This document shows, piece after piece, positions 8,451-55,137 of a DNA stretch of 64,000 nucleotides (positions within the stretch are counted from its first letter, which is position 1; each line of letters begins with the position of its first letter). The notes below the pieces were generated by a model. The model was not told where the DNA came from. It worked only from the letters and a program-made list of their open reading frames with translations, and searched no databases. The stretch comes from Dongiaceae bacterium. Lineage in GTDB: Bacteria > Pseudomonadota > Alphaproteobacteria > SHNJ01. The stretch spans positions 154,202 to 218,201 of the forward strand of contig JBFXCK010000002.1 of assembly GCA_050182275.1 (NCBI GenBank), read 5' to 3'. A program made the translations under genes and the position numbers.

Positions 8451-8463
8451 AAGGCTAAGCTTT

Positions 8464-9171
8464 ATGGAGAATTTTATGGAGTGGTGTAGTTTAGTAATAA
8501 AATCAGTCTTTAATACCATTTGGAGGAATATAGAAGGCATATTTCAGAGTTGGTCAGTTTTTTCTGATGTTCTTACAGCTTTTGGTACTCTGGTATTAGT
8601 TATATTGGCATTGATAGGGTTTAATGCCTGGAAACAGCAAATTTCCATGCAAAGAAAGGCAACTTTTATTGATGAATTACTTCACACGATATATGAATAT
8701 ATAGATGCTATGGGGGGGCCAGTCCAATCTGTTAGATTTATTAAATATGGTTTTGAGGCATACTCCGACACAGAAAAACTAAGGCAAAATAATAATAAAC
8801 ATGCGGGCATAATTACTTATATTAAAAAAAATGGAGAAAATGATTCTAAGCGTTTATTTGAACGTCTTAGAAATGTTCGCCCTTTTAAATCTAGGCTGCA
8901 TTTTTTGATAATTAAAGGCGGATTATTTAAATTTGAAGATTATTCAACATGTGCTACTGCTTGTAGGTCATTAACAAGTTCTTATGATCAAATAGAAGCA
9001 TTAGCAGCTATGATAAGTAGTCCTCTTATGAATTGGGAAAATCCGAAAGTTAAGGAGATGTTAGATAAGTTAGCTCTGCTGGATGCCTTAAATATAGAAA
9101 ATAATTTATCCACTAACCTCGAAATACTTATTAAGTTTATAGAATCTATTTATGGTAAGTTATTTAAATAG
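8464..9171 (+). CDS. hypothetical single-pass membrane protein (235 aa), strongly AT-rich
   Basis: True start taken at MENFMEW (8464), since the upstream part of the 295-aa ORF overlaps the DUF192 gene in another frame. One TM helix (VLTAFGTLVLVILALIGFNAW). GC is roughly one third by eye versus >50% in neighbours. Confidence 0.55.
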   Translation: MENFMEWCSLVIKSVFNTIWRNIEGIFQSWSVFSDVLTAFGTLVLVILALIGFNAWKQQISMQRKATFIDELLHTIYEYIDAMGGPVQSVRFIKYGFEAYSDTEKLRQNNNKHAGIITYIKKNGENDSKRLFERLRNVRPFKSRLHFLIIKGGLFKFEDYSTCATACRSLTSSYDQIEALAAMISSPLMNWENPKVKEMLDKLALLDALNIENNLSTNLEILIKFIESIYGKLFK

Positions 9172-9961
9172 AATCACCAAGCTCTCGTTTAATGGTCGCT
9201 AATACATCACCATATGTCTCTCTTATATTTCCTTTGGAAAATCTAATTTGTTGAATGCCCTCTAAATTGGAGAATTTTTCAACGTCTGCTTCTAATAGTA
9301 CAATGGCGCGGCTAAAACCCAGCTTTCCTTGAAATAATCCGATTTCATGAATAACATTTTGTCGAGCGCGAGATTTACCATTTGGTTGCTCGTCTTCTGC
9401 AGTTAAGACAAGAAATGCTATTGAAGATTTTGAGGCCATTTCATCAAGGATATCTCTAATAGTGTGTCCAGCTCTTGTGCCAGTTTCGTATGCCTCGATA
9501 CAATAATGATGTTGCTCTTGCAGATGATCTTTCAAGTCTCGCCACTGTTTATCATGTCCATGGCCAATAAAAACAATAGGCGGTTTTTTAGGAGTGGGCG
9601 GCGGCTGAACTATAGAGTTGTTATGATGAGACTCAAAAATAGAAAAAATTCTTTGAATATCTTGCGTTTTTGTTCCTTTGACTAATACACGAGTAGTAAA
9701 AAACGCGTCACCTGTTATGCGAAATCTAGCATCATTAAAAATGATGTCGATTGTGAACCAACTCTTACTTTTTCTATAATCTTCAAAAAATTCGTCTTCA
9801 TTATCATGTTCCCAGGTTGAATCATCTATGTGAACACTAAGTTGAGCATAAGTTTTTTGAGAGCTATTAGGTTTTGGATAAAGACTTAAGAATAAATTAA
9901 TAGCTTCCTTTAGAACTTCTACTGAAAATCTAGTATTGTTGTAATCTTTAGATCTTTGCAT
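9164..9961 (-). CDS. two-domain protein: N-terminal unknown domain (~130 aa) plus C-terminal TIR-like nucleotide-binding domain (Pfam PF10137, CAP12/PycTIR-type)
   Basis: C-terminal block PIVFIGHGHD...IAFLVLTAEDE...SRARQNVIHEIGLFQGKLGFSRAIVLLE...NLEGIQQIRF. This matches the FIGxxxE...AIxLxTxDD...RARxNVxFELGxFxGxLGxxRVxxL...PSDLxG signature of the TIR-like family. AT-rich. 3' end overlaps the convergent membrane-protein gene by 8 bp. Confidence 0.6.
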   Translation of the reverse strand: MQRSKDYNNTRFSVEVLKEAINLFLSLYPKPNSSQKTYAQLSVHIDDSTWEHDNEDEFFEDYRKSKSWFTIDIIFNDARFRITGDAFFTTRVLVKGTKTQDIQRIFSIFESHHNNSIVQPPPTPKKPPIVFIGHGHDKQWRDLKDHLQEQHHYCIEAYETGTRAGHTIRDILDEMASKSSIAFLVLTAEDEQPNGKSRARQNVIHEIGLFQGKLGFSRAIVLLEADVEKFSNLEGIQQIRFSKGNIRETYGDVLATIKRELGDSI

Positions 9962-10008
9962 GATTCAAGACTGCTATAAGGTAAATTCTTTACAAGGGTG
10001 CTTAAAAA

Positions 10009-10085
<77 letters not shown>

Positions 10086-10486: not shown

Positions 10487-10563
10487 TGGCGTCCCCGATA
10501 CGATTCGAACGTACGACCTACTGCTTAGAAGGCAGTTGCTCTATCCAGCTGAGCTACGGGGAC
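10487..10563 (-). tRNA. tRNA-Arg (anticodon TCT)
   Basis: Reverse complement GTCCCCGTAGCTCAGCTGGATAGAGC..anticodon loop CTTCTAA..GGTTCGAATC..GGGGACGCCA. 77 nt. Confidence 0.85.
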
Positions 10564-10641
10564 AATGGTAATCGACTTCATCCTACTTATCATCCCCTAG
10601 TTCTTTAAGCTTACGCCAAAGTCTATCGACTTTGGCTAGGG

Positions 10642-10660
10642 CCAGCTGAGCTACGGGGAC
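10642..10660. repeat. 19-bp direct copy of the 5' end of tRNA-Arg (ccagctgagctacggggac), 78 bp beyond the gene
   Basis: Identical to 10545..10563. Confidence 0.7.
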
Positions 10661-14426: not shown

Positions 14427-14479
14427 TAAGTCGTTAAGAAGTGATGAAAGGGGCTAAGAGATAGAAAAATAAGGAAATT

Positions 14480-14572
14480 TGGCTCGCCTTTGATAGGGAT
14501 CGAACCAGCTAAGCAAAGCCGAAGGCTTTGTTAGCAAATAAGACGTGGGTTCGCTAGAAATTGAGAGAAATT
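14480..14572. repeat. 93-bp tRNA-linked repeat unit: 27-nt copy of a tRNA-Asn-like 3' end (T-arm + acceptor + CCA) plus a conserved hairpin module; abuts tRNA-Asn
   Basis: tggctcgcctttgatagggatcgaacc mimics tggctccctgggtagggatcgaacc of tRNA-Asn. The module agctaagcaaagccgaaggctttgttagc...gtgggttcgctagaaat is about 80% identical to the module repeated at 45665..45935. Confidence 0.7.
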
Positions 14573-14647
14573 TGGCTCCCTGGGTAGGGATCGAACCTAC
14601 GACCAAGCGATTAACAGTCGCTTGCTCTACCGCTGAGCTACCAGGGA
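14573..14647 (-). tRNA. tRNA-Asn (anticodon GTT)
   Basis: Reverse complement TCCCTGGTAGCTCAGCGGTAGAGC..loop CTGTTAA..GGTTCGATCC..CCAGGGAGCCA. 75 nt. Confidence 0.85.
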
Positions 14648-14712: not shown

Positions 14713-14786
14713 TGGAGGCCTGGAGCGGAATCGAACCGCTATACAAGGATTTGCAATCCTCTGCATCACCACTCTGCCACCAGGCC
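14713..14786 (-). tRNA. tRNA-Cys (anticodon GCA)
   Basis: Reverse complement GGCCTGGTGGCAGAGTGGTGATGC..loop TTGCAAA..GGTTCGATTCCGC..CCAGGCCTCCA. 74 nt. Confidence 0.8.
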
Positions 14787-45611: not shown

Positions 45612-45664
45612 CATAAATGATTAAATGGCCTGCCATCCGAAGCTTGGCAAAGCCAAGCGCAGGA

Positions 45665-45935
45665 TGGTGAGTGAGAGCGGTTGAGGATCGAACCAGCCAA
45701 GCAAAGCGAAGCTTTGTTGGCGCAAAAATGGTGGGTTCGCTAAAGATCTCGGAAAACTGGTGAGAGCGGTTGAGGATCGAACCAGCCAAGCAAAGCGAAG
45801 CTTTGTTGGCACAAAAATGGTGGGTTCGCTAAAGATCTCGGAAAACTGGTGAGAGCGGTTGAGGATCGAACCAGCCAAGCAAAGCGAAGCTTTGTTGGCA
45901 CAAAAATGGTGGGTTCGCTAAAGATCTCGGAAAAC
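45665..45935. repeat. three tandem ~89-bp units (93, 89, 89 bp), each a diverged 26-nt tRNA-Lys 3'-end copy plus a conserved hairpin module; abuts the genuine tRNA-Lys
   Basis: Unit: tggtgagagcggttgaggatcgaacc + agccaagcaaagcgaagctttgttggcacaaaaatggtgggttcgctaaagatctcggaaaac. Units 2 and 3 are identical. Unit 1 carries an extra gtga and a g/a difference. The same module architecture occurs at 14480..14572. Confidence 0.85.
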
Positions 45936-46010
<75 letters not shown>

Positions 46011-50899: not shown

Positions 50900-51889
50900 T
50901 TATTTAACCAGGCCTCTTTCCATTAATTTTTTGGCGATCATCTCTATCACCGATTTATTTTCGGGGGGCGGCGCTTTATCCAGGGCCATCAGCGCGCCTA
51001 GATGCCAAAAGGAATGGTTAATTACTTGGGCTAATTGCATCATCCAAAGTGCAGCGCCAAAGCGGGCGTCGTTTTCAATAGGGTTGTGAAAATAAGCGGC
51101 TGGATAGTGGCGCGCGTTAAAATAAAGGCGGTAATTGCCCAATAAAATGGCCCTTGTTTCTACATCAATCGCTGTCCCTTCTTTTGCAGCCGGCGGATTT
51201 TTGCCCCAGCAATATTGCAAATGGTGGCAATTTTCATGAAGCAAAATGACGATGTCGTTGAGCAGTAAATCGGGATCGTTATAGCCGCCCCTTTTTTTAT
51301 TGACGGTTATTTCGGTTTTTCCGCACTTATAATGGCCGCCTACGGAACCCGCCGAAGTTTTTTTGCGGATTCTTCTTACCTGCAGGCCGGGCAGGGAAAC
51401 TCCGCAAGCCTCGGCCAGCAAGCGGTTCATTTTTTGTAAGACTTTGAGCCTAAGTTCGCCGGTATAAGGAATTTCCCGGTCGGTGATTTTTCTTAAACAA
51501 TCCAGGAATTCGGGCTGTTGCCGCAGCAAATCCGCCAGCCGGAGCGCTTTTTGGCGGTATAATTTTAGCAGCGCCGATAAAAAATTTTGCCGTGAACGGT
51601 GCAGCCTTTGCAGGGCGGCGGTTTCCTCCGGGTATTTTTTCTCGATGCTTTTAAATGAAATACTGCTGTCGTAGGAATGAAGGGGCAAATTATAAAGCCG
51701 CGCCACCAGCCGCCGCGCTTGCTCGACGGGCATAGCTGATAAATCCTCATCCGATATTTTTTTCAATTGTTCGATCACCAGGCGCCTATCGGCGGCGGCT
51801 GCCTCTTCAGCGCGGCTAACGCGCCGTTTTTGCGGCGGTAAAACCGCCAAAGCTGCCTCGGCGATGATGGGATAGGTTTGCAGAACCAT
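50900..51889 (-). CDS. hypothetical protein with HExxH motif (putative Zn-metallopeptidase), co-directional and downstream of the cI-like repressor
   Basis: ILLHENCHHLQY is the only recognisable motif. 329 aa. Confidence 0.5.
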   Translation of the reverse strand: MVLQTYPIIAEAALAVLPPQKRRVSRAEEAAAADRRLVIEQLKKISDEDLSAMPVEQARRLVARLYNLPLHSYDSSISFKSIEKKYPEETAALQRLHRSRQNFLSALLKLYRQKALRLADLLRQQPEFLDCLRKITDREIPYTGELRLKVLQKMNRLLAEACGVSLPGLQVRRIRKKTSAGSVGGHYKCGKTEITVNKKRGGYNDPDLLLNDIVILLHENCHHLQYCWGKNPPAAKEGTAIDVETRAILLGNYRLYFNARHYPAAYFHNPIENDARFGAALWMMQLAQVINHSFWHLGALMALDKAPPPENKSVIEMIAKKLMERGLVK

Positions 51890-51953
51890 TTTTTATTGCA
51901 CCCTCTGGCCGGCACATTATTATTTTGTATCCCTAAAGTCAACGAGTTTGGGG

Positions 51954-52676
51954 CTAAAAATATTCTTGCACCCCGATCACCCGGTAAATGCTTTTAACTC
52001 TATTCCGGGGAATAGTGATTTCCTGGGCGGGGTTGAATTGTTTTAAAATAAGGGCGGCGCCTTCTTCCTTTAGATATTGCTTGACCAGGCCCTGACCGTC
52101 TTTCAGCTCGACTACCACAAAGCAGTTTTTGGACAGGGGGCGGTTAGGGTTGATGTAGAGCACTTCGCCGGGAAAGAAGCGCGGTTCCATGCTTTCGCCA
52201 TTCACATAGACCGCAAAGGCGTTTTTGACCCCATTGAGAGAGGAAGGCCGTTCAATCATTTCATGAATATCGCCATTTGATAAGAAAAACCCTTCTTTGC
52301 CGCCCTTGGCTGCGCCTAAAACCGGCAAATCACGCGAAAACTGCTTGGAAAGCGGTGAAAAATCGGTTTTTTCCGCTAAAAGATGCGGCGGGATGGAAAT
52401 GGATTTTTCCGGTAGCGCGGTAGTATTTTGGGCGGTTTCAGGAAGTAGTTCGCTAATATCGCAACCCAAACCGGCAGCGATTCTGCGCATCCAATCAACC
52501 GTTAGACGCCGTTCGCCTTTTTCGAGTTTATCAATTTGCGCCTTGCTGGTGCCGATACGGTCGGCCAGCTCTTGCATCGTGAGATCAAGACCGAGGCGGA
52601 TGTCGCGAATGCGGTTGATGGAGGGCTCCATAATCAAGGCAGCATAGACCGGCTGTTTAGTGGCGTAAATATACAA
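51954..52676 (-). CDS. phage cI/LexA-like repressor: XRE-family HTH plus S24 self-cleaving peptidase domain
   Basis: HTH LTMQELADRIGTSKAQIDKLEKGER. C-terminal FAVYVNGESMEPRFFPGEVLYINP...GLVKQY (S24 Ser/Lys dyad context). Alternative start MEPSIN at 52631. Confidence 0.8.
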   Translation of the reverse strand: MYIYATKQPVYAALIMEPSINRIRDIRLGLDLTMQELADRIGTSKAQIDKLEKGERRLTVDWMRRIAAGLGCDISELLPETAQNTTALPEKSISIPPHLLAEKTDFSPLSKQFSRDLPVLGAAKGGKEGFFLSNGDIHEMIERPSSLNGVKNAFAVYVNGESMEPRFFPGEVLYINPNRPLSKNCFVVVELKDGQGLVKQYLKEEGAALILKQFNPAQEITIPRNRVKSIYRVIGVQEYF

Positions 52677-52678
52677 AA

Positions 52679-52693
52679 GTATACAAATTGTAT
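52679..52693. promoter_or_regulatory. perfect palindrome TATACAAATTGTATA in the divergent promoter region (candidate operator)
   Basis: Lies between the divergently transcribed repressor and HTH genes. AT-rich context carries TATA-like hexamers. Confidence 0.5.
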
Positions 52694-52729
52694 ATTTTGT
52701 GGATAATTGGATACCAAATCTTGTTAAAA

Positions 52730-52746
52730 GTAACCAGAATGGTTAC
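52730..52746. promoter_or_regulatory. perfect palindrome GTAACCAGAATGGTTAC (candidate operator) just upstream of the Cro-like gene
   Basis: 6-5-6 inverted repeat located 10 bp upstream of the ATG at 52757. Confidence 0.5.
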
Positions 52747-52756
52747 TACACTAACT

Positions 52757-53182
52757 ATGGACAACTTACGCGAGTATCTAGAATTCCATGGATTAAGCGC
52801 AGCCGAATTCGCACGGCGTATCGGGATTAAAAGCCGCAGCACCATTTTCCGTTATTTGCGGGGCCGCCGCCCAAGGGCCGATTATAAATCAAAAATATCT
52901 ATTTATATAAATGGTTTAAGTAATAATATTCATATTCAAGATAAATATAATCGCCAACAGGATGCCTCCCTTCATTGGCAAATAGCTTTGATGATCTTAG
53001 GCGCGCGCGTTAAAAAGGGGGGCAAATCCGGCCTTTATACGCTGGATGGGCGCCCTTGCGGAGGAAAAGGCCTCATTCAAGCGGCAAACGCCGAATTGCG
53101 TTGTAAGGGCTTCCCTTTGCTGTTCTATCCAGGTTTAAGGCCTTTACCGGAAAAATCGCCGCCGCGCTGGCGGCCTTATTAG
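52757..53182 (+). CDS. Cro/XRE-like small HTH protein (HTH within the first ~45 aa; remainder low-confidence)
   Basis: LSAAEFARRIGIKSRSTIFRYLRG HTH. Transcribed divergently from the cI-like repressor. Confidence 0.45.
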   Translation: MDNLREYLEFHGLSAAEFARRIGIKSRSTIFRYLRGRRPRADYKSKISIYINGLSNNIHIQDKYNRQQDASLHWQIALMILGARVKKGGKSGLYTLDGRPCGGKGLIQAANAELRCKGFPLLFYPGLRPLPEKSPPRWRPY

Positions 53183-53277
53183 CCCGTAAAGTCTTAATTT
53201 TGTTCAAGCTACGTAAAATTAGGATAAAATGGGGTATACTAAGACTAAGGAAACCATCTTGTAAAACAGGAAAAATA

Positions 53278-53925
53278 GTGAATAAACCTTCATCTTCCGG
53301 CTTTGCTTTAGGCACGATTATTTTGGTGATCGCGCTTTTGGCTGCTGTTACCACGGCCTTTTCGCTGGCCAGCCGCAGCAACCTTTTTACCAATACCGAT
53401 CCTTTGCAGCGCAATGAACTTATACCGGTGCGTGATGGCATGCTGCAAATCGCCGCCGCCACGCGGCGTATTATTAACAGCTGTCCGGCCGATCCTGTCG
53501 AATATAGCGCATGTTTGGACCGGATTAATGTCAATCCAGAATGCCCGGAATGCGCGAATGATGAAACCGCGGCGCGGCATTGGGTGTATCAACCAATTTA
53601 TGGGGGCGCTTCGCTTTTTCACATCCGCCCGCGCTATTTGGCCGATATACAAGTTCCGGTCAGCTGGGTTCTCGCGCGCAATGTCCGCCCGGCGCGCGGC
53701 GGGGCTTTAATCCCGGTGGTGATATATGCCGAAGGTTTTTCCAGCCATGCCTGCCGCTTGCTTAACGAGATTATCAGTCTGCGCCCGCTTGCTGCAACCT
53801 TTACCGCTCCGGCTTTACAATCTTTTGGCACTTTGCCATACGATGCGGTAGAAGGATGCTTCGTGGTATCGGGAACAAATGGAATGCGCACTCAATATTT
53901 TTATGTCGTCGGAGGGCGTCAATGA
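53278..53925 (+). CDS. pilin/pseudopilin-like protein A: short basic leader, N-terminal hydrophobic helix, Cys-rich periplasmic domain
   Basis: GTG start preceded by AGGA. MNKPSSSG|FALGTIILVIALLAAVTTAF resembles a prepilin leader but lacks Glu5. Cys cluster CPADPVEYSAC...CPECAND. Confidence 0.5.
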   Translation: MNKPSSSGFALGTIILVIALLAAVTTAFSLASRSNLFTNTDPLQRNELIPVRDGMLQIAAATRRIINSCPADPVEYSACLDRINVNPECPECANDETAARHWVYQPIYGGASLFHIRPRYLADIQVPVSWVLARNVRPARGGALIPVVIYAEGFSSHACRLLNEIISLRPLAATFTAPALQSFGTLPYDAVEGCFVVSGTNGMRTQYFYVVGGRQ

Positions 53926-54614
53926 GTCATCATAAGTTTTTCAGCCGGGGTTTCGCCATCGGCACTGTATTGCTGGTCATTGTCTTGATGGCCTCCACCA
54001 TGATGGCGTTTTCCGCCCTTCGCGGCGATCAAACCAGTATGGTGATGGATGATAAATACCGCAGCCTGGCTGGCGTTGTGCGCGCCCAAGCCAGCGATAT
54101 TCAGCGCATTTACCTGCGTGTTCATGATGGAATGCCGGAACCAGAAAAATCTGATCCGACCGCCAATATCCGCGTTTGCATTCCCAATGCGGGCTGCACT
54201 TGTTCGCCGCCGGCTCAGCCTTGCGTCTTTGGATCAACCGGCGGCGCCTTAATTCAGCCAACCTTGCGCCGCGATATTTTCGCCGATAGCGTCAGCGACA
54301 CCAGTTATTTCACTGACCCTTGGCGCGTGGCCAAAATCCAAGTTCCCATCGGGCGCCATACCGCGGAAGGCGAAACAACCGACTGGGCTATCATGCTTTA
54401 TTTGCGCGCGCCGGTGCGCCAGGAAGTATGTGAAAAAATCAATTTTTATGCCGCGCGGGGGCGCACCTATCCAACGGTAGCGCCGCAATATTTCACCGAT
54501 CTTATCGCCGGAAGCCAGGTTTTGGACATGGCGCAAAGCGCCGATTTTTGCATTCCGGTTAATACTTCGCCACCGGCCGGGCGTTATGTTTTGATCATCG
54601 GCTCTCATCCTTAA
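53922..54614 (+). CDS. pilin/pseudopilin-like protein B, paralogue of A
   Basis: MSHHKFFSRG|FAIGTVLLVIVLMASTMMAF. Cys cluster CIPNAGCTCSPPAQPC. Shared IQVP block. ATGA overlap with gene A. Confidence 0.5.
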   Translation: MSHHKFFSRGFAIGTVLLVIVLMASTMMAFSALRGDQTSMVMDDKYRSLAGVVRAQASDIQRIYLRVHDGMPEPEKSDPTANIRVCIPNAGCTCSPPAQPCVFGSTGGALIQPTLRRDIFADSVSDTSYFTDPWRVAKIQVPIGRHTAEGETTDWAIMLYLRAPVRQEVCEKINFYAARGRTYPTVAPQYFTDLIAGSQVLDMAQSADFCIPVNTSPPAGRYVLIIGSHP

Positions 54615-54624
54615 AAATTTTGTT

Positions 54625-55137
54625 ATGCGTTTTTGGTTTTTCCTTTTTCTTCTTGGTTCGGTGCTGGCGGCTTGCAACCGCGGCAACCATTCGCCCGAAG
54701 CCGGCTTTTGCCGCGCCGTGGTGGAAGATGTGTTTGTAAGCAATCAGGACCTTGATATTCAAGAAGTGGCCGTTAACGCGAAAAATCCCAAAGGCCAAGT
54801 GACGGTGATTTACAGCGTGCTGGATACCACCGGACGGCGGGTAAATGATAAAGCTGTTTGTTCCTTCAATCCCGATCTGGGAGCGAAGGGCGGTTTACTG
54901 TCGCTTCACCAGCTAGGCGCCGATATTCCCGCGATTCATGTGGCGTTTTTAAATCAGCGCTTGGGCGGAAAATTCGGCTACCGGGCCCCGCCGCTGGTTT
55001 CCCGTAAAGCGGCGGCTCCGCCTGCCGAAGCGCCTAAGATAAATCCGCCGCCTGCGCCCGCGCCCGAGGCGGAGACGCCCAAGCCTAAAGACAGCTCGGT
55101 GCCCGACGATACGCCGGCGCCCGATATGGGCGACTAG
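54625..55137 (+). CDS. hypothetical lipoprotein with Pro-rich C-terminal tail
   Basis: Lipobox LAAC after MRFWFFLFLLGSV. Confidence 0.55.
   Translation: MRFWFFLFLLGSVLAACNRGNHSPEAGFCRAVVEDVFVSNQDLDIQEVAVNAKNPKGQVTVIYSVLDTTGRRVNDKAVCSFNPDLGAKGGLLSLHQLGADIPAIHVAFLNQRLGGKFGYRAPPLVSRKAAAPPAEAPKINPPPAPAPEAETPKPKDSSVPDDTPAPDMGD

What the first reader, a model, noticed from the sequence alone, without database searches (positions are those of the whole stretch)
14455..14572. tRNA-linked repeat module downstream of tRNA-Asn (same family as the tandem array at tRNA-Lys)
Directly abutting the CCA end of tRNA-Asn is a 93-bp unit made of a 27-nt imitation of the tRNA-Asn 3' end (T-arm, acceptor, CCA) followed by a hairpin (agctaagcaaagcc-gaa-ggctttgttagc) and a conserved tail (gtgggttcgctagaaat...). 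A further fragment of the tail (ggctaagagatagaaaaataaggaaattt) precedes it, hinting at an older copy. The hairpin and tail are about 80% identical to the unit repeated three times next to tRNA-Lys at 45665..45935, whereas the tRNA-like part matches the local tRNA in each case. That is the signature expected from an element that integrates at tRNA 3' ends and regenerates them, but the unit is only ~90 bp and carries no coding capacity. It could be a non-autonomous integrative mini-element, stacked att-site scars, or a co-transcribed tRNA-like small RNA.
Basis: seen in the sequence. Interest (0 to 1): 0.6.

Follow-up and report, generated by a model that had tools for sequence, protein, structure and literature searches.

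The report
tRNA-linked repeats behind two tRNAs
Right after two tRNA genes of an uncultured alphaproteobacterium sit one and three copies of a ~90-base module (a hairpin-bearing core followed by a copy of that tRNA's own 3' end), an independent, non-homologous counterpart of the long-known but still unexplained "tRNA-linked repeats" of E. coli.

Summary
On the tRNA (minus) strand, tRNA-Asn is followed at once by a 93-nt unit (14572..14480). tRNA-Lys is followed by three 89-nt units (45935..45669). Each unit has four parts: a short trailer, the block TAGCGAACCCAC, a 12-bp bulged hairpin, and a copy of the resident tRNA's T-loop, acceptor strand and CCA. The cores are 83% identical between the two loci. 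The 3' copies match the local tRNA (85% and 92%) better than other tRNAs (59-70%).

The architecture is that of the E. coli tRNA-linked repeats (TLR/RtT). There is no sequence homology: Rfam RtT does not hit these units but does hit the E. coli control.

I found no copy elsewhere. I searched 185,579 reference genomes, JGI metagenomes, IMG/VR, plasmids, phages, called ORFs among 5.8 billion protein clusters, and the rest of the window. The window encodes no integrase.

A near-identical assembly has two Lys units instead of three. This is either copy-number change or repeat collapse in assembly.

Best reading: a lineage-specific TLR-like trailer module, co-transcribed with the tRNA and bounded by repeated 3'-processing signals, with arrays that grow by unequal recombination. 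Transcription, processing and function are inferred, not shown. A mini integrative element is not supported but not excluded.

The parts
14573..14647 (-). tRNA-Asn (GTT), the resident tRNA. Its 3' CCA (14575..14573) abuts the unit.
   Evidence: ARAGORN; Rfam tRNA 70.1 bits.
14480..14572 (-). Asn tRNA-linked unit, 93 nt, single copy.
   Evidence: Sequence; alignment to the Lys units; covariance model hit of 91.6 bits; identical in 5 assemblies.
14545..14556 (-). Conserved block TAGCGAACCCAC ('anti-T-arm'). CGAACC pairs with GGUUCG of the T-loop copy. CGAACCCAC(G) is the reverse complement of the tRNA-Lys T arm GTGGGTTCG.
   Evidence: Exact in all 4 units; consensus fold; match to the reverse complement of tRNA-Lys, p about 0.003-0.016 uncorrected; duplex energies.
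14508..14535 (-). Hairpin GCUAACAAAGCC-UUCG-GGCUUUGCUUAGC: 12 bp with a conserved bulged C.
   Evidence: Folds. One compensatory pair, U-A (Asn) versus C-G (Lys).
14480..14507 (-). Copy of the tRNA-Asn 3' end (T-loop, acceptor 3' strand, CCA): TGGTTCGATCCCTATCAAAGGCGAGCCA.
   Evidence: 85% identical to tRNA-Asn, 63-70% to other tRNAs; GCTGGTTCGATCC block.
14462..14479 (-). 18 nt after the imitation CCA that repeat the 18 nt after the true CCA (13/18). The duplicated segment extends past CCA.
   Evidence: The rest of the flank is not unit-like.
14713..14786 (-). tRNA-Cys (GCA), 65 nt upstream on the same strand. Probably the same transcription unit as tRNA-Asn and the module.
   Evidence: No terminator-like site on the minus strand.
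45936..46010 (-). tRNA-Lys (TTT), the resident tRNA of the array.
45847..45935 (-). Lys unit 1 (89 nt): trailer, TAGCGAACCCAC, hairpin GCCAACAAAGC-UUC-GCUUUGCUUGGC, then TGGTTCGATCCTCAACCGCTCTCACCA.
   Evidence: covariance model 116.3 bits.
45758..45846 (-). Lys unit 2, identical to unit 1. This is the unit missing from assembly GCA_050247815.1.
45669..45757 (-). Lys unit 3: one substitution (TGCGCC for TGTGCC) and an irregular end, ...CGCTCTCAC-TCAC-CA (4-nt duplication).
   Evidence: covariance model 112.9 bits.

Best explanation
This is a lineage-specific family of tRNA-linked repeats (TLR-like trailer modules) in an uncultured Dongiaceae-like alphaproteobacterium.

Each unit is a 62-65-nt payload followed by a copy of the resident tRNA's T-loop, acceptor 3' strand and CCA. 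The payload is a short trailer, an 'anti-T-arm' block and a 12-bp hairpin. The anti-T-arm block pairs with the T-loop copy, so each unit closes into one extended stem-loop and leaves the acceptor-like ...CCA tail single-stranded.

Shown:
- the anatomy;
- the exact abutment to CCA at two different tRNAs;
- the shared core with locus-specific 3' ends;
- the same orientation as the tRNA;
- the absence of a predicted terminator in between;
- the restriction to tRNA 3' flanks in all sequence available;
- the identity of the Asn unit in every assembly.

Inferred:
(i) The units are transcribed as the tRNA's 3' trailer.
(ii) Every unit ends with the same 3'-end determinants as the tRNA. The nucleases that trim the tRNA 3' end (RNase E-type cleavage just past the repeat, then exonucleases) would therefore cut the trailer into unit-length, hairpin-stabilised RNAs ending in CCA. 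This has been proposed for E. coli RrB and RtT.
(iii) A single unit is the primary state. Arrays arise and change size by unequal recombination or slippage between the 25-45-nt direct repeats formed by the tRNA 3' end and its copies.
(iv) The first unit arose by duplication of the T-loop-to-CCA segment (plus a few trailer bases) around the hairpin core. The core then spread between the two tRNAs by recombination through their identical T-loops (GGTTCGATCC).

Whether the released RNA has a function, for example as a sponge, decoy or processing buffer, is unknown.
For: - Anatomy and significance.
- Consensus structure: a 6-bp closing helix CGAACC/GGUUCG around an 11-12-bp hairpin, with one compensatory U-A/C-G pair. 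The tRNA-strand RNA folds better than shuffles (z = -3.0 and -2.3), whereas the opposite strand does not (z = -1.3 and -1.6).
- No terminator-like site on the tRNA strand between tRNA and units.
- Precedent. The E. coli TLRs number 22, at 10 tRNA/rRNA loci, with 1-5 per locus. Their last 18-19 nt equal the 3' end of the upstream gene. RrB ends were mapped next to the repeats and attributed to RNase E (PMC8144298).
- The E. coli tyrT-tyrV locus shows the same layout. The Rfam RtT consensus closes the unit by pairing an internal segment with the tRNA-derived AUCCuuCcC, leaving ccaCCACCA free. That is the same logic as here.
- Array size differs (3 versus 2 units) between two assemblies that are 99.98-100% identical elsewhere.
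- Only four copies, all directly 3' of a tRNA, in the window and about 13 kb of further sequence.
- All five tRNAs encode CCA, and the units end in CCA.
Against: - There are no expression data. Transcription and processing rest on position and on analogy with a gammaproteobacterium.
- There is no homology to E. coli TLRs, so the analogy is architectural only.
- The 3' copies are not exact over 18-19 nt as in E. coli. Lys has 13 contiguous nt plus the T-loop decamer. Asn has only GAGCCA plus the T-loop block.
- With only two independent sequence variants, the single compensatory pair is weak. Template-switch repair within a quasi-palindrome could also produce it.
- The 3 versus 2 difference may be collapse of two identical 89-bp units in a short-read assembly.
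- Only two loci in one species are known, and the rest of the genome could not be scanned.
- How the same core reached two different tRNAs is not explained by simple local duplication.
Confidence: 0.55

Rival explanations
1. Miniature integrative element or stacked att scars. A tyrosine-integrase-type system encoded elsewhere in the genome recombines at the T-loop or 3' end of tRNA genes. The element supplies a new 3' end and pushes the old one downstream. The 47-62-nt payload is either all that is left of the element, or a non-autonomous mini-element mobilised in trans. Repeated integration or unequal exchange stacks the units.
For: - The direct repeat begins in the T-loop and runs to CCA, and at the Asn locus about 18 nt further. 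This is the size and placement that tRNA-targeting integrases typically leave (general knowledge of tRNA att sites; not tested here).
- The same payload sits at two tRNAs that share the T-loop GGTTCGATCC.
- The tRNA-distal copy is the more degenerate one.
- tRNA 3' flanks are insertion points in this genome. A strain-variable 1,554-bp insertion begins 2 nt after the tRNA-Pro CCA and is flanked by an imperfect 16-bp repeat.
Against: - No integrase, recombinase or transposase family was reported for any called gene across the window.
- The payload has no inverted core sites around the T-loop copy.
- An 89-93-bp circle is too small to be a recombination substrate.
- The module is absent from IMG/VR, phage and plasmid collections, 185,579 reference genomes and JGI metagenomes.
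- All three Lys copies share the same 'degenerate' CTCAA variant. This fits amplification of one unit better than serial integrations.
- The Asn site shows no polymorphism in any assembly.
Confidence: 0.2
2. Genomic fossils. The units are decayed tandem duplicates of the tRNA genes (period = tRNA of 75 nt plus a 14-18-nt spacer). Only the 3' part is still recognisable. They have no present function and are propagated passively by unequal crossing-over.
For: - The periods of 89 and 93 nt equal the tRNA length plus a short spacer.
- tRNA-Arg in the same window has a 19-nt exact copy of its 5' end 97 nt upstream, followed by a hairpin and a GGGGAT that could pair with it. This looks like a decayed tandem tRNA copy.
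- The E. coli RtT unit visibly retains variable-arm and T-arm remnants of tRNA-Tyr.
Against: - The payloads have no detectable similarity to the 5' two-thirds of their tRNAs (p = 0.6-0.96). The tRNA covariance model gives no hit to the units even at E <= 10.
- Yet the payloads of the two loci are 83% identical to each other in the core. Independent decay of tRNA-Asn and tRNA-Lys copies would not produce this.
- The hairpin keeps pairing through a double change.
Confidence: 0.2
3. Assembly or binning artefact. The repeats would be chimeric joins created by the shared T-loop k-mers of tRNA genes.
For: - One Logan contig starts inside the tRNA-Asn T arm (L057).
- The Lys array length differs between assemblies.
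- One MAG has an N-gap with duplicated tRNA-Cys flanks.
Against: - The Asn unit with both flanks is identical in five assemblies from at least two read sets.
- The payload sequence exists nowhere else in the window from which it could have been borrowed.
- The Lys units carry their own variant (unit 3) and a unique distal junction.
Confidence: 0.03

Closest known systems
E. coli tRNA-linked repeats (TLRs; Egan & Landy 1978; Rudd 1999), including RtT/rttR at tyrT-tyrV (Rfam RF00391) and rrA/rrB/rrF behind 5S rRNA
   Same: - They lie directly downstream of a tRNA or rRNA gene in the same orientation, with 1-5 units per locus.
- Each unit ends with a copy of the 3' end of the upstream gene.
- The family is shared between loci, with locus-specific 3' ends.
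- Units close by pairing an internal segment with the tRNA-derived segment, leaving the ...CCA tail free.
- No accepted function for the tRNA-linked members.
(PMC8144298.)
   Different: - No sequence or covariance-model similarity in either direction.
- Units are half the size (89-93 versus 178 bp at tyrT).
- The copy of the tRNA end is longer but imperfect, running from T-loop to CCA at 85-92%, rather than 18-19 nt exact.
- The T-loop copy is contiguous with the acceptor copy, whereas in RtT they are separated by about 70 nt of GC-rich hairpins.
- The host is an uncultured alphaproteobacterium.
- Transcription and processing are not shown here.
3' external transcribed spacer RNAs of tRNA operons (3'ETS-leuZ of glyW-cysT-leuZ)
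   Same: An RNA released from a tRNA trailer by the tRNA-processing nucleases, and able to act in trans (as summarised in PMC8144298).
   Different: 3'ETS-leuZ is a single spacer ending in a terminator, with no copy of the tRNA end and no tandem repetition. Any sponge function for the present units is pure conjecture.
att sites of integrative elements in tRNA genes (direct repeats of the tRNA 3' part flanking islands and prophages; cis-mobilisable or degenerate elements bounded by att sites)
   Same: A direct repeat of the T-loop-to-CCA segment, with an intact tRNA on one side and an imperfect copy on the other. Tandem stacking is possible.
   Different: The payload between the repeats is only 47-62 nt. 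There are no genes, no recombinase nearby and no relatives in phage, plasmid or virus collections. Such elements are normally kilobases long. This comparison rests on general knowledge and was not tested here.
REP/BIME, REPIN and MITE-type intergenic hairpin repeats
   Same: Short, non-coding, hairpin-forming, and repeated.
   Different: Those families are dispersed at many intergenic sites and are not tied to tRNA ends. Here, all four copies abut a tRNA 3' end. No further copy exists in about 77 kb, and there are no target-site duplications or terminal inverted repeats beyond the 6-bp CGAACC/GGTTCG.

Membership tests
tRNA-linked repeats (TLR) as an architectural class | Located immediately downstream of a tRNA/rRNA gene, in the same orientation, within the operon. 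| tested here: met
   The units start at the base after CCA of tRNA-Asn and tRNA-Lys, on the same strand. No terminator-like site lies between them.
tRNA-linked repeats (TLR) as an architectural class | The 3' end of each unit repeats the 3' end of the upstream gene (18-19 nt identical in E. coli). | tested here: met
   Met in kind, not to the letter. Lys: 13 contiguous nt plus the T-loop decamer, 24/26 overall. Asn: 23/27, with only 6 contiguous nt at the very end. Both match the local tRNA better than any other tRNA.
tRNA-linked repeats (TLR) as an architectural class | One to five units per locus; several loci share a family. | tested here: met
   One unit at Asn and three (or two) at Lys. 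The core is 83% identical between loci.
tRNA-linked repeats (TLR) as an architectural class | Transcribed with the tRNA and processed to discrete RNAs. | not testable with these tools
   No expression data for this MAG. Shown in E. coli only for RtT and RrA/B/F (PMC8144298).
RtT RNA (Rfam RF00391), i.e. homology to the E. coli TLRs | Match to the RtT covariance model. | tested here: not met
   No RtT hit at E <= 10 on either locus. The positive control gave four hits of 133-137 bits in E. coli L062. The reciprocal search with model R1 found nothing in L062.
Integrative element or att-scar at a tRNA gene | Direct repeats of the tRNA 3' part bounding the insert. | tested here: met
   T-loop-to-CCA repeated; at the Asn locus the repeat runs 18 nt further.
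Integrative element or att-scar at a tRNA gene | A cognate integrase/recombinase in or near the element, or relatives of the insert in mobile elements. | tested here: not met
   No recombinase family among the called genes of the window. No match in IMG/VR, phages or plasmids. An integrase elsewhere in the genome could not be checked.
Integrative element or att-scar at a tRNA gene | Occupied versus empty sites among related strains. | tested here: inconclusive
   The Asn site is occupied and identical in all assemblies. The Lys array has 3 versus 2 units. The 97.5%-identical strain has no contig across either array that is truly divergent. The relative with 64% CoaD identity lacks the module but is too distant to serve as an empty site.
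Dispersed hairpin repeats (REP/REPIN/MITE) | Many copies at unrelated intergenic sites. | tested here: not met
   Only the four tRNA-linked copies in 64 kb (covariance model with filters off; blastn-short). None in 13 kb of further sequence. The whole genome was not available.
tRNA pseudogene (decayed tandem tRNA copy) | Residual similarity to the tRNA outside the 3' end, or a weak tRNA-model hit. | tested here: not met
   Payload versus direct tRNA sequence: p = 0.6-0.96. No tRNA-model hit on the units at E <= 10.

The most novel reading that the evidence does not exclude
The module is not a passive trailer repeat but an active device aimed at the T arm. It could be one of two things.

(a) A non-autonomous element, or RNA-templated insertion, that homes to the universally conserved T-loop GGTTCGATCC and duplicates the T-loop-to-CCA segment when it inserts.

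(b) A cis-acting regulator. Its anti-T-arm block (9/9 complementary to the tRNA-Lys T arm, 8/9 to tRNA-Asn), together with a spare acceptor strand, would let the precursor switch between a maturable cloverleaf and a locked alternative fold. This would tune the output of mature tRNA.
Probability: 0.12. Interest if true: 0.75.

Novelty: new variant of a known kind. Interest (0 to 1): 0.4.

Why it matters
tRNA-linked repeats were first seen in E. coli in 1978 and are still, for the tRNA-linked members, without a function or an agreed origin.

A second family now turns up in a distant, uncultured alphaproteobacterium. It is unrelated in sequence but built on the same logic: a hairpin core closed by pairing with a copy of the resident tRNA's 3' part, a CCA tail left free, and tandem amplification. 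This suggests that a general process produces the architecture repeatedly, rather than an enterobacterial accident. That process could be selection for reusable 3'-processing signals, or a mutational mechanism at tRNA 3' ends.

The units here are half the size of RtT and have a simple predicted fold, so they would make a compact test object.

In practice, gene callers annotate a spurious 85-aa 'hypothetical protein' across the array, and short-read assemblies disagree on its length.

Tried and rejected
- Reference-genome scan for GCGAACCCN{20,50}GCTGGTTCGATCC: 25 loci, all chance matches inside coding sequence (many in a gene that encodes ...SWFDP), none with the hairpin. The source MAG itself is apparently not in that collection.
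- JGI metagenome scan for AGCGAACCCACN{20,45}GGTTCGATC: 28 loci, all chance.
- IMG/VR scans with two different anchors: 0 hits. blastn against plasmids and phages: no match.
- Protein search with the translated array, to catch arrays that gene callers had turned into ORFs elsewhere: it returned only the window's own spurious ORF.
- Rfam at gathering and at E <= 10: only tRNAs and noise.
- Payload as a decayed direct tRNA copy: rejected.
- Flank after the units as an older decayed unit: not above shuffles, apart from the first 18 nt at the Asn locus.
- Hairpin as an intrinsic terminator: no U-tract on either strand and no terminator call.
- Strain comparison:
  - Exact-protein look-ups for CoaD as translated from the window, and for P0121, failed.
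  - The roughly 97.5%-identical MAG GCA_050174445.1 is too fragmented to cover the Lys array. Its Asn contig is 100% identical to the window, so it is not an independent strain sample.
  - The extra 130 bp in that contig is an N-gap with duplicated flanks, not an extra unit.
- Relatives' tRNA-Lys locus (CoaD 64% identical): the tRNA is in a different orientation and there is no module.
- Extending the window by about 13 kb found no further tRNA and no further copy.

Full report
**What is there**

ARAGORN and Rfam place five tRNA genes in the window, all on the minus strand: Pro 10009-10085, Arg 10487-10563, Asn 14573-14647, Cys 14713-14786 and Lys 45936-46010.

Read on the tRNA strand, the CCA of tRNA-Asn is followed without a gap by a 93-nt unit (14572..14480). 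It consists of:
- AATTTCTCTCAATTTC
- TAGCGAACCCAC
- GTCTTATTT
- a hairpin GCTAACAAAGCC/UUCG/GGCTTTGCTTAGC
- TGGTTCGATCCCTATCAAAGGCGAGCCA.

The CCA of tRNA-Lys is followed by three 89-nt units of the same build (45935..45669). Tandem Repeats Finder reports period 89, 3.3 copies and 98% matches, with the tRNA's own 3' part as the extra 0.3 copy.

**Is it more than chance?**

Yes.
- The Asn and Lys units share 59 invariant columns of 93, including exact blocks of 12, 8, 9 and 13 nt.
- The payload 5' of the T-loop copy is 75% identical, and the core from TAGCGAACC onward is 83% identical.
- The 3' parts follow the local tRNA. The Asn copy is 85% identical to tRNA-Asn and the Lys copy 92% to tRNA-Lys, against 59-70% to any other tRNA of the window.
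- Eleven- and twelve-mers from the tRNA ends recur 4 and 2 times, where shuffles give 0.01-0.02.
- The Asn unit with its flanks is identical in three NCBI MAG assemblies and two Logan assemblies, so it is not an assembly chimera.

The first 18 nt after the imitation CCA repeat the first 18 nt after the real CCA (13/18). Further out, the flank is no more unit-like than shuffled sequence.

**Structure**

The RNAalifold consensus is a 6-bp helix between CGAACC of the conserved block and GGUUCG of the T-loop copy. This helix encloses the 11-12-bp hairpin with a conserved bulged C. One hairpin pair is U-A in the Asn unit and C-G in the Lys units.

The tRNA-strand RNAs fold better than shuffles (z = -3.0 and -2.3). 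The opposite strand does not (z = -1.3 and -1.6).

The block CGAACCCAC is also the exact reverse complement of the tRNA-Lys T arm GTGGGTTCG, and it has one mismatch to tRNA-Asn. Predicted duplexes with the genuine T arms (-17.1 and -12.5 kcal/mol) are stronger than with the imitations (-12.3 and -9.2). The predicted minimum-energy fold of tRNA-Lys plus one unit uses that pairing and pairs the tRNA's 5' acceptor strand with the downstream copy of the 3' strand. This is a thermodynamic prediction only.

**What it is not**

- Not a known RNA family. No Rfam family, including tRNA and RtT, matches the units even at E <= 10.
- Not a recognisably decayed tRNA copy. The payload is not detectably similar to the 5' two-thirds of either tRNA.
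- Not a terminator. The hairpin has no U-tract, and no terminator-like site lies between the tRNAs and the units on their strand.
- Not next to a recombinase. The gene tables obtained for nearly the whole window report no integrase, recombinase or transposase family.

**Distribution**

The source is a MAG labelled Dongiaceae bacterium. The neighbouring CoaD is 100% identical to an NCBI MAG protein, and the next-best homologue is only 64% identical, so there are no close relatives in the databases.

Searches beyond the window:
- Pattern scans anchored on the two most conserved blocks gave only chance hits in 185,579 reference genomes and in the JGI metagenome contigs.
- IMG/VR gave none with two different anchors.
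- blastn found nothing in plasmids or phages.
- A protein search with the translated array, meant to catch arrays that gene callers had turned into ORFs, returned only the window's own spurious 85-aa 'hypothetical protein'.

Searches within available sequence of this genome and relatives:
- A covariance model built from the four units, run without filters, finds only those four copies in the window.
- It finds none in about 13 kb of additional sequence of the same genome, in the tRNA-Lys loci of the 64% relative, or in the E. coli RtT locus.

As far as can be seen, the family is confined to this species and to tRNA 3' flanks. The rest of the genome could not be scanned.

**Strain comparison**

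Assembly GCA_050247815.1 is 99.98-100% identical to the window. It carries two Lys units instead of three, and the missing unit is one of the two identical ones. This could be real copy-number change. It could equally be collapse of a 178-bp perfect repeat in a short-read assembly.

The Asn locus is invariant in every assembly. A third MAG, about 97.5% identical in other contigs, is too fragmented to cover the Lys array. Its Asn contig is 100% identical to the window, so it gives no independent evidence.

**Closest known**

The literature search led to the E. coli tRNA-linked repeats. According to PMC8144298:
- There are 22 TLRs at ten tRNA or rRNA loci, with one to five per locus.
- In each, the last 18-19 nt are identical to the 3' end of the gene immediately upstream.
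- They were first seen by Egan and Landy in 1978 and catalogued by Rudd in 1999.
- They have no known function, except that the three copies behind 5S rRNA are processed sRNAs binding Hfq and CsrA.
- The authors propose that the repeated 3' end is what RNase E recognises to form the RNA's 3' end.

I fetched the tyrT-tyrV locus of E. coli K-12. It has a 178-bp unit repeated 3.1 times, each ending in AATCCTTCCCCCACCACCA, with an internal imitation of the T arm. Rfam RtT hits it four times, which serves as a positive control. In the RtT consensus structure an internal GgGaaGGAU pairs with the tRNA-derived AUCCuuCcC to close the unit, leaving ccaCCACCA unpaired.

The present module has the same logic. 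An internal segment complementary to the tRNA-derived part closes a hairpin-bearing unit and leaves an acceptor-like CCA tail. It differs in sequence, in size, in how much of the tRNA is copied, and in host.

**Interpretation**

I file this as a TLR-like module by architecture and not as a member of the RtT family, since homology was tested and not met.

The most likely mechanism (confidence about 0.55) has three inferred steps:
- The units are transcribed as the 3' trailer of the tRNA.
- The repeated 3'-end determinants let the tRNA 3'-processing nucleases cut the trailer into unit-length hairpin RNAs.
- Arrays expand and contract by unequal exchange between the 25-45-nt direct repeats.

Position, orientation, structure and the possible copy-number difference are shown. 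Transcription, processing and any function are inferred by analogy.

How the same core came to lie behind two different tRNAs remains open. Recombination through the identical T-loops (GGTTCGATCC in both tRNAs) is the simplest route.

The integrative mini-element reading (about 0.2) keeps the attraction of the T-loop-anchored direct repeat, but it lacks any recombinase, mobile relatives or empty sites. The decayed-tRNA-copy reading (about 0.2) is encouraged by the period and by a 5'-end duplication at tRNA-Arg. It fails to explain why the two payloads resemble each other and not their tRNAs.

**Novelty and interest**

This is a new, non-homologous variant of a kind known since 1978. It shows that the TLR architecture is not an enterobacterial peculiarity, and it offers a compact model. 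The evidence is sequence-only and comes from two loci in one uncultured species. I score interest at 0.4.

The most novel reading still open is a T-arm-directed device: either a homing mini-element, or a cis-regulator of tRNA maturation acting through the anti-T-arm. I give it about 0.12.

Noticed in passing
window 10564-10660 (minus strand), upstream of tRNA-Arg(TCT) 10487-10563: This is a mirror image of the finding. The first 19 nt of tRNA-Arg (GTCCCCGTAGCTCAGCTGG) are repeated exactly 97 nt upstream. They are followed by a 9-bp hairpin (GCCAAAGTC-GATA-GACTTTGGC) and a CTAGGGGAT that can pair with the copied acceptor strand (predicted -33 kcal/mol). It is not homologous to the Asn/Lys payload and gets no tRNA-model hit. 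It is conserved, with 1 substitution, in the 97.5%-identical strain. It may be a decayed tandem tRNA copy or a 5'-side analogue of the TLR-like units.
   Followed up: partly
window 8453-10006: A 1,554-bp strain-variable insertion begins 2 nt after the tRNA-Pro CCA. It is present in the window and in GCA_050247815.1 and absent from GCA_050174445.1 (L064), which has 4 nt there. It carries a CAP12-PCTIR_TIR-domain gene (9164-9961, minus strand) and a convergent 235-aa gene with no Pfam hit. It is flanked by an imperfect direct repeat of about 16 bp (TTTTTAAGCACCCTTG / CTTCTAAGGCACCCTAT). It has no integrase. It looks like a small defence islet at a tRNA flank.
   Followed up: partly
window 45621-45878 (minus strand): The Lys array is open in all three frames for up to 85-89 codons. 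In the NCBI record it is annotated as a hypothetical protein (AB7O99_02465, 85 aa). This is a spurious ORF made of repeat units.
   Followed up: yes
window 45612-45680 (minus strand): The distal end of the Lys array is irregular. The last copy reads CGCTCTCAC-TCAC-CA (a 4-nt duplication). It is followed by a nested hairpin, CCATCC...GCTTGGC-TTT-GCCAAGC...GGATGG, just before the convergent coaD stop codon. That hairpin shares AAGCTTCG and GCTTTGC with the unit hairpin, but the similarity is not above shuffles (p about 0.07-0.11).
   Followed up: partly
L070 (GCA_050174445.1 JBFXJX010000199.1) 1128-1228; L064, L073: That MAG contains a run of N with duplicated tRNA-Cys flanks, which is a scaffolding artefact. 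It also mixes contigs that are 100% and about 97.5% identical to the window, which suggests a bin assembled from two strains.
   Followed up: yes
window 50900-55137: A cluster comprising an HTH_3/Peptidase_S24 repressor-like gene, a divergent small HTH_3 gene and four genes without Pfam hits lies about 5 kb on the 5' side of tRNA-Lys. It may be a prophage remnant or defence cassette. No integrase was seen.
   Followed up: no
L064 1-3907 (same genome lineage, just beyond the window's left end): A 1,301-aa protein made almost entirely of ankyrin repeats, unusual for a free-living alphaproteobacterium. Together with the 50% GC and the lack of close relatives, it hints at a host-associated lifestyle.
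   Followed up: no
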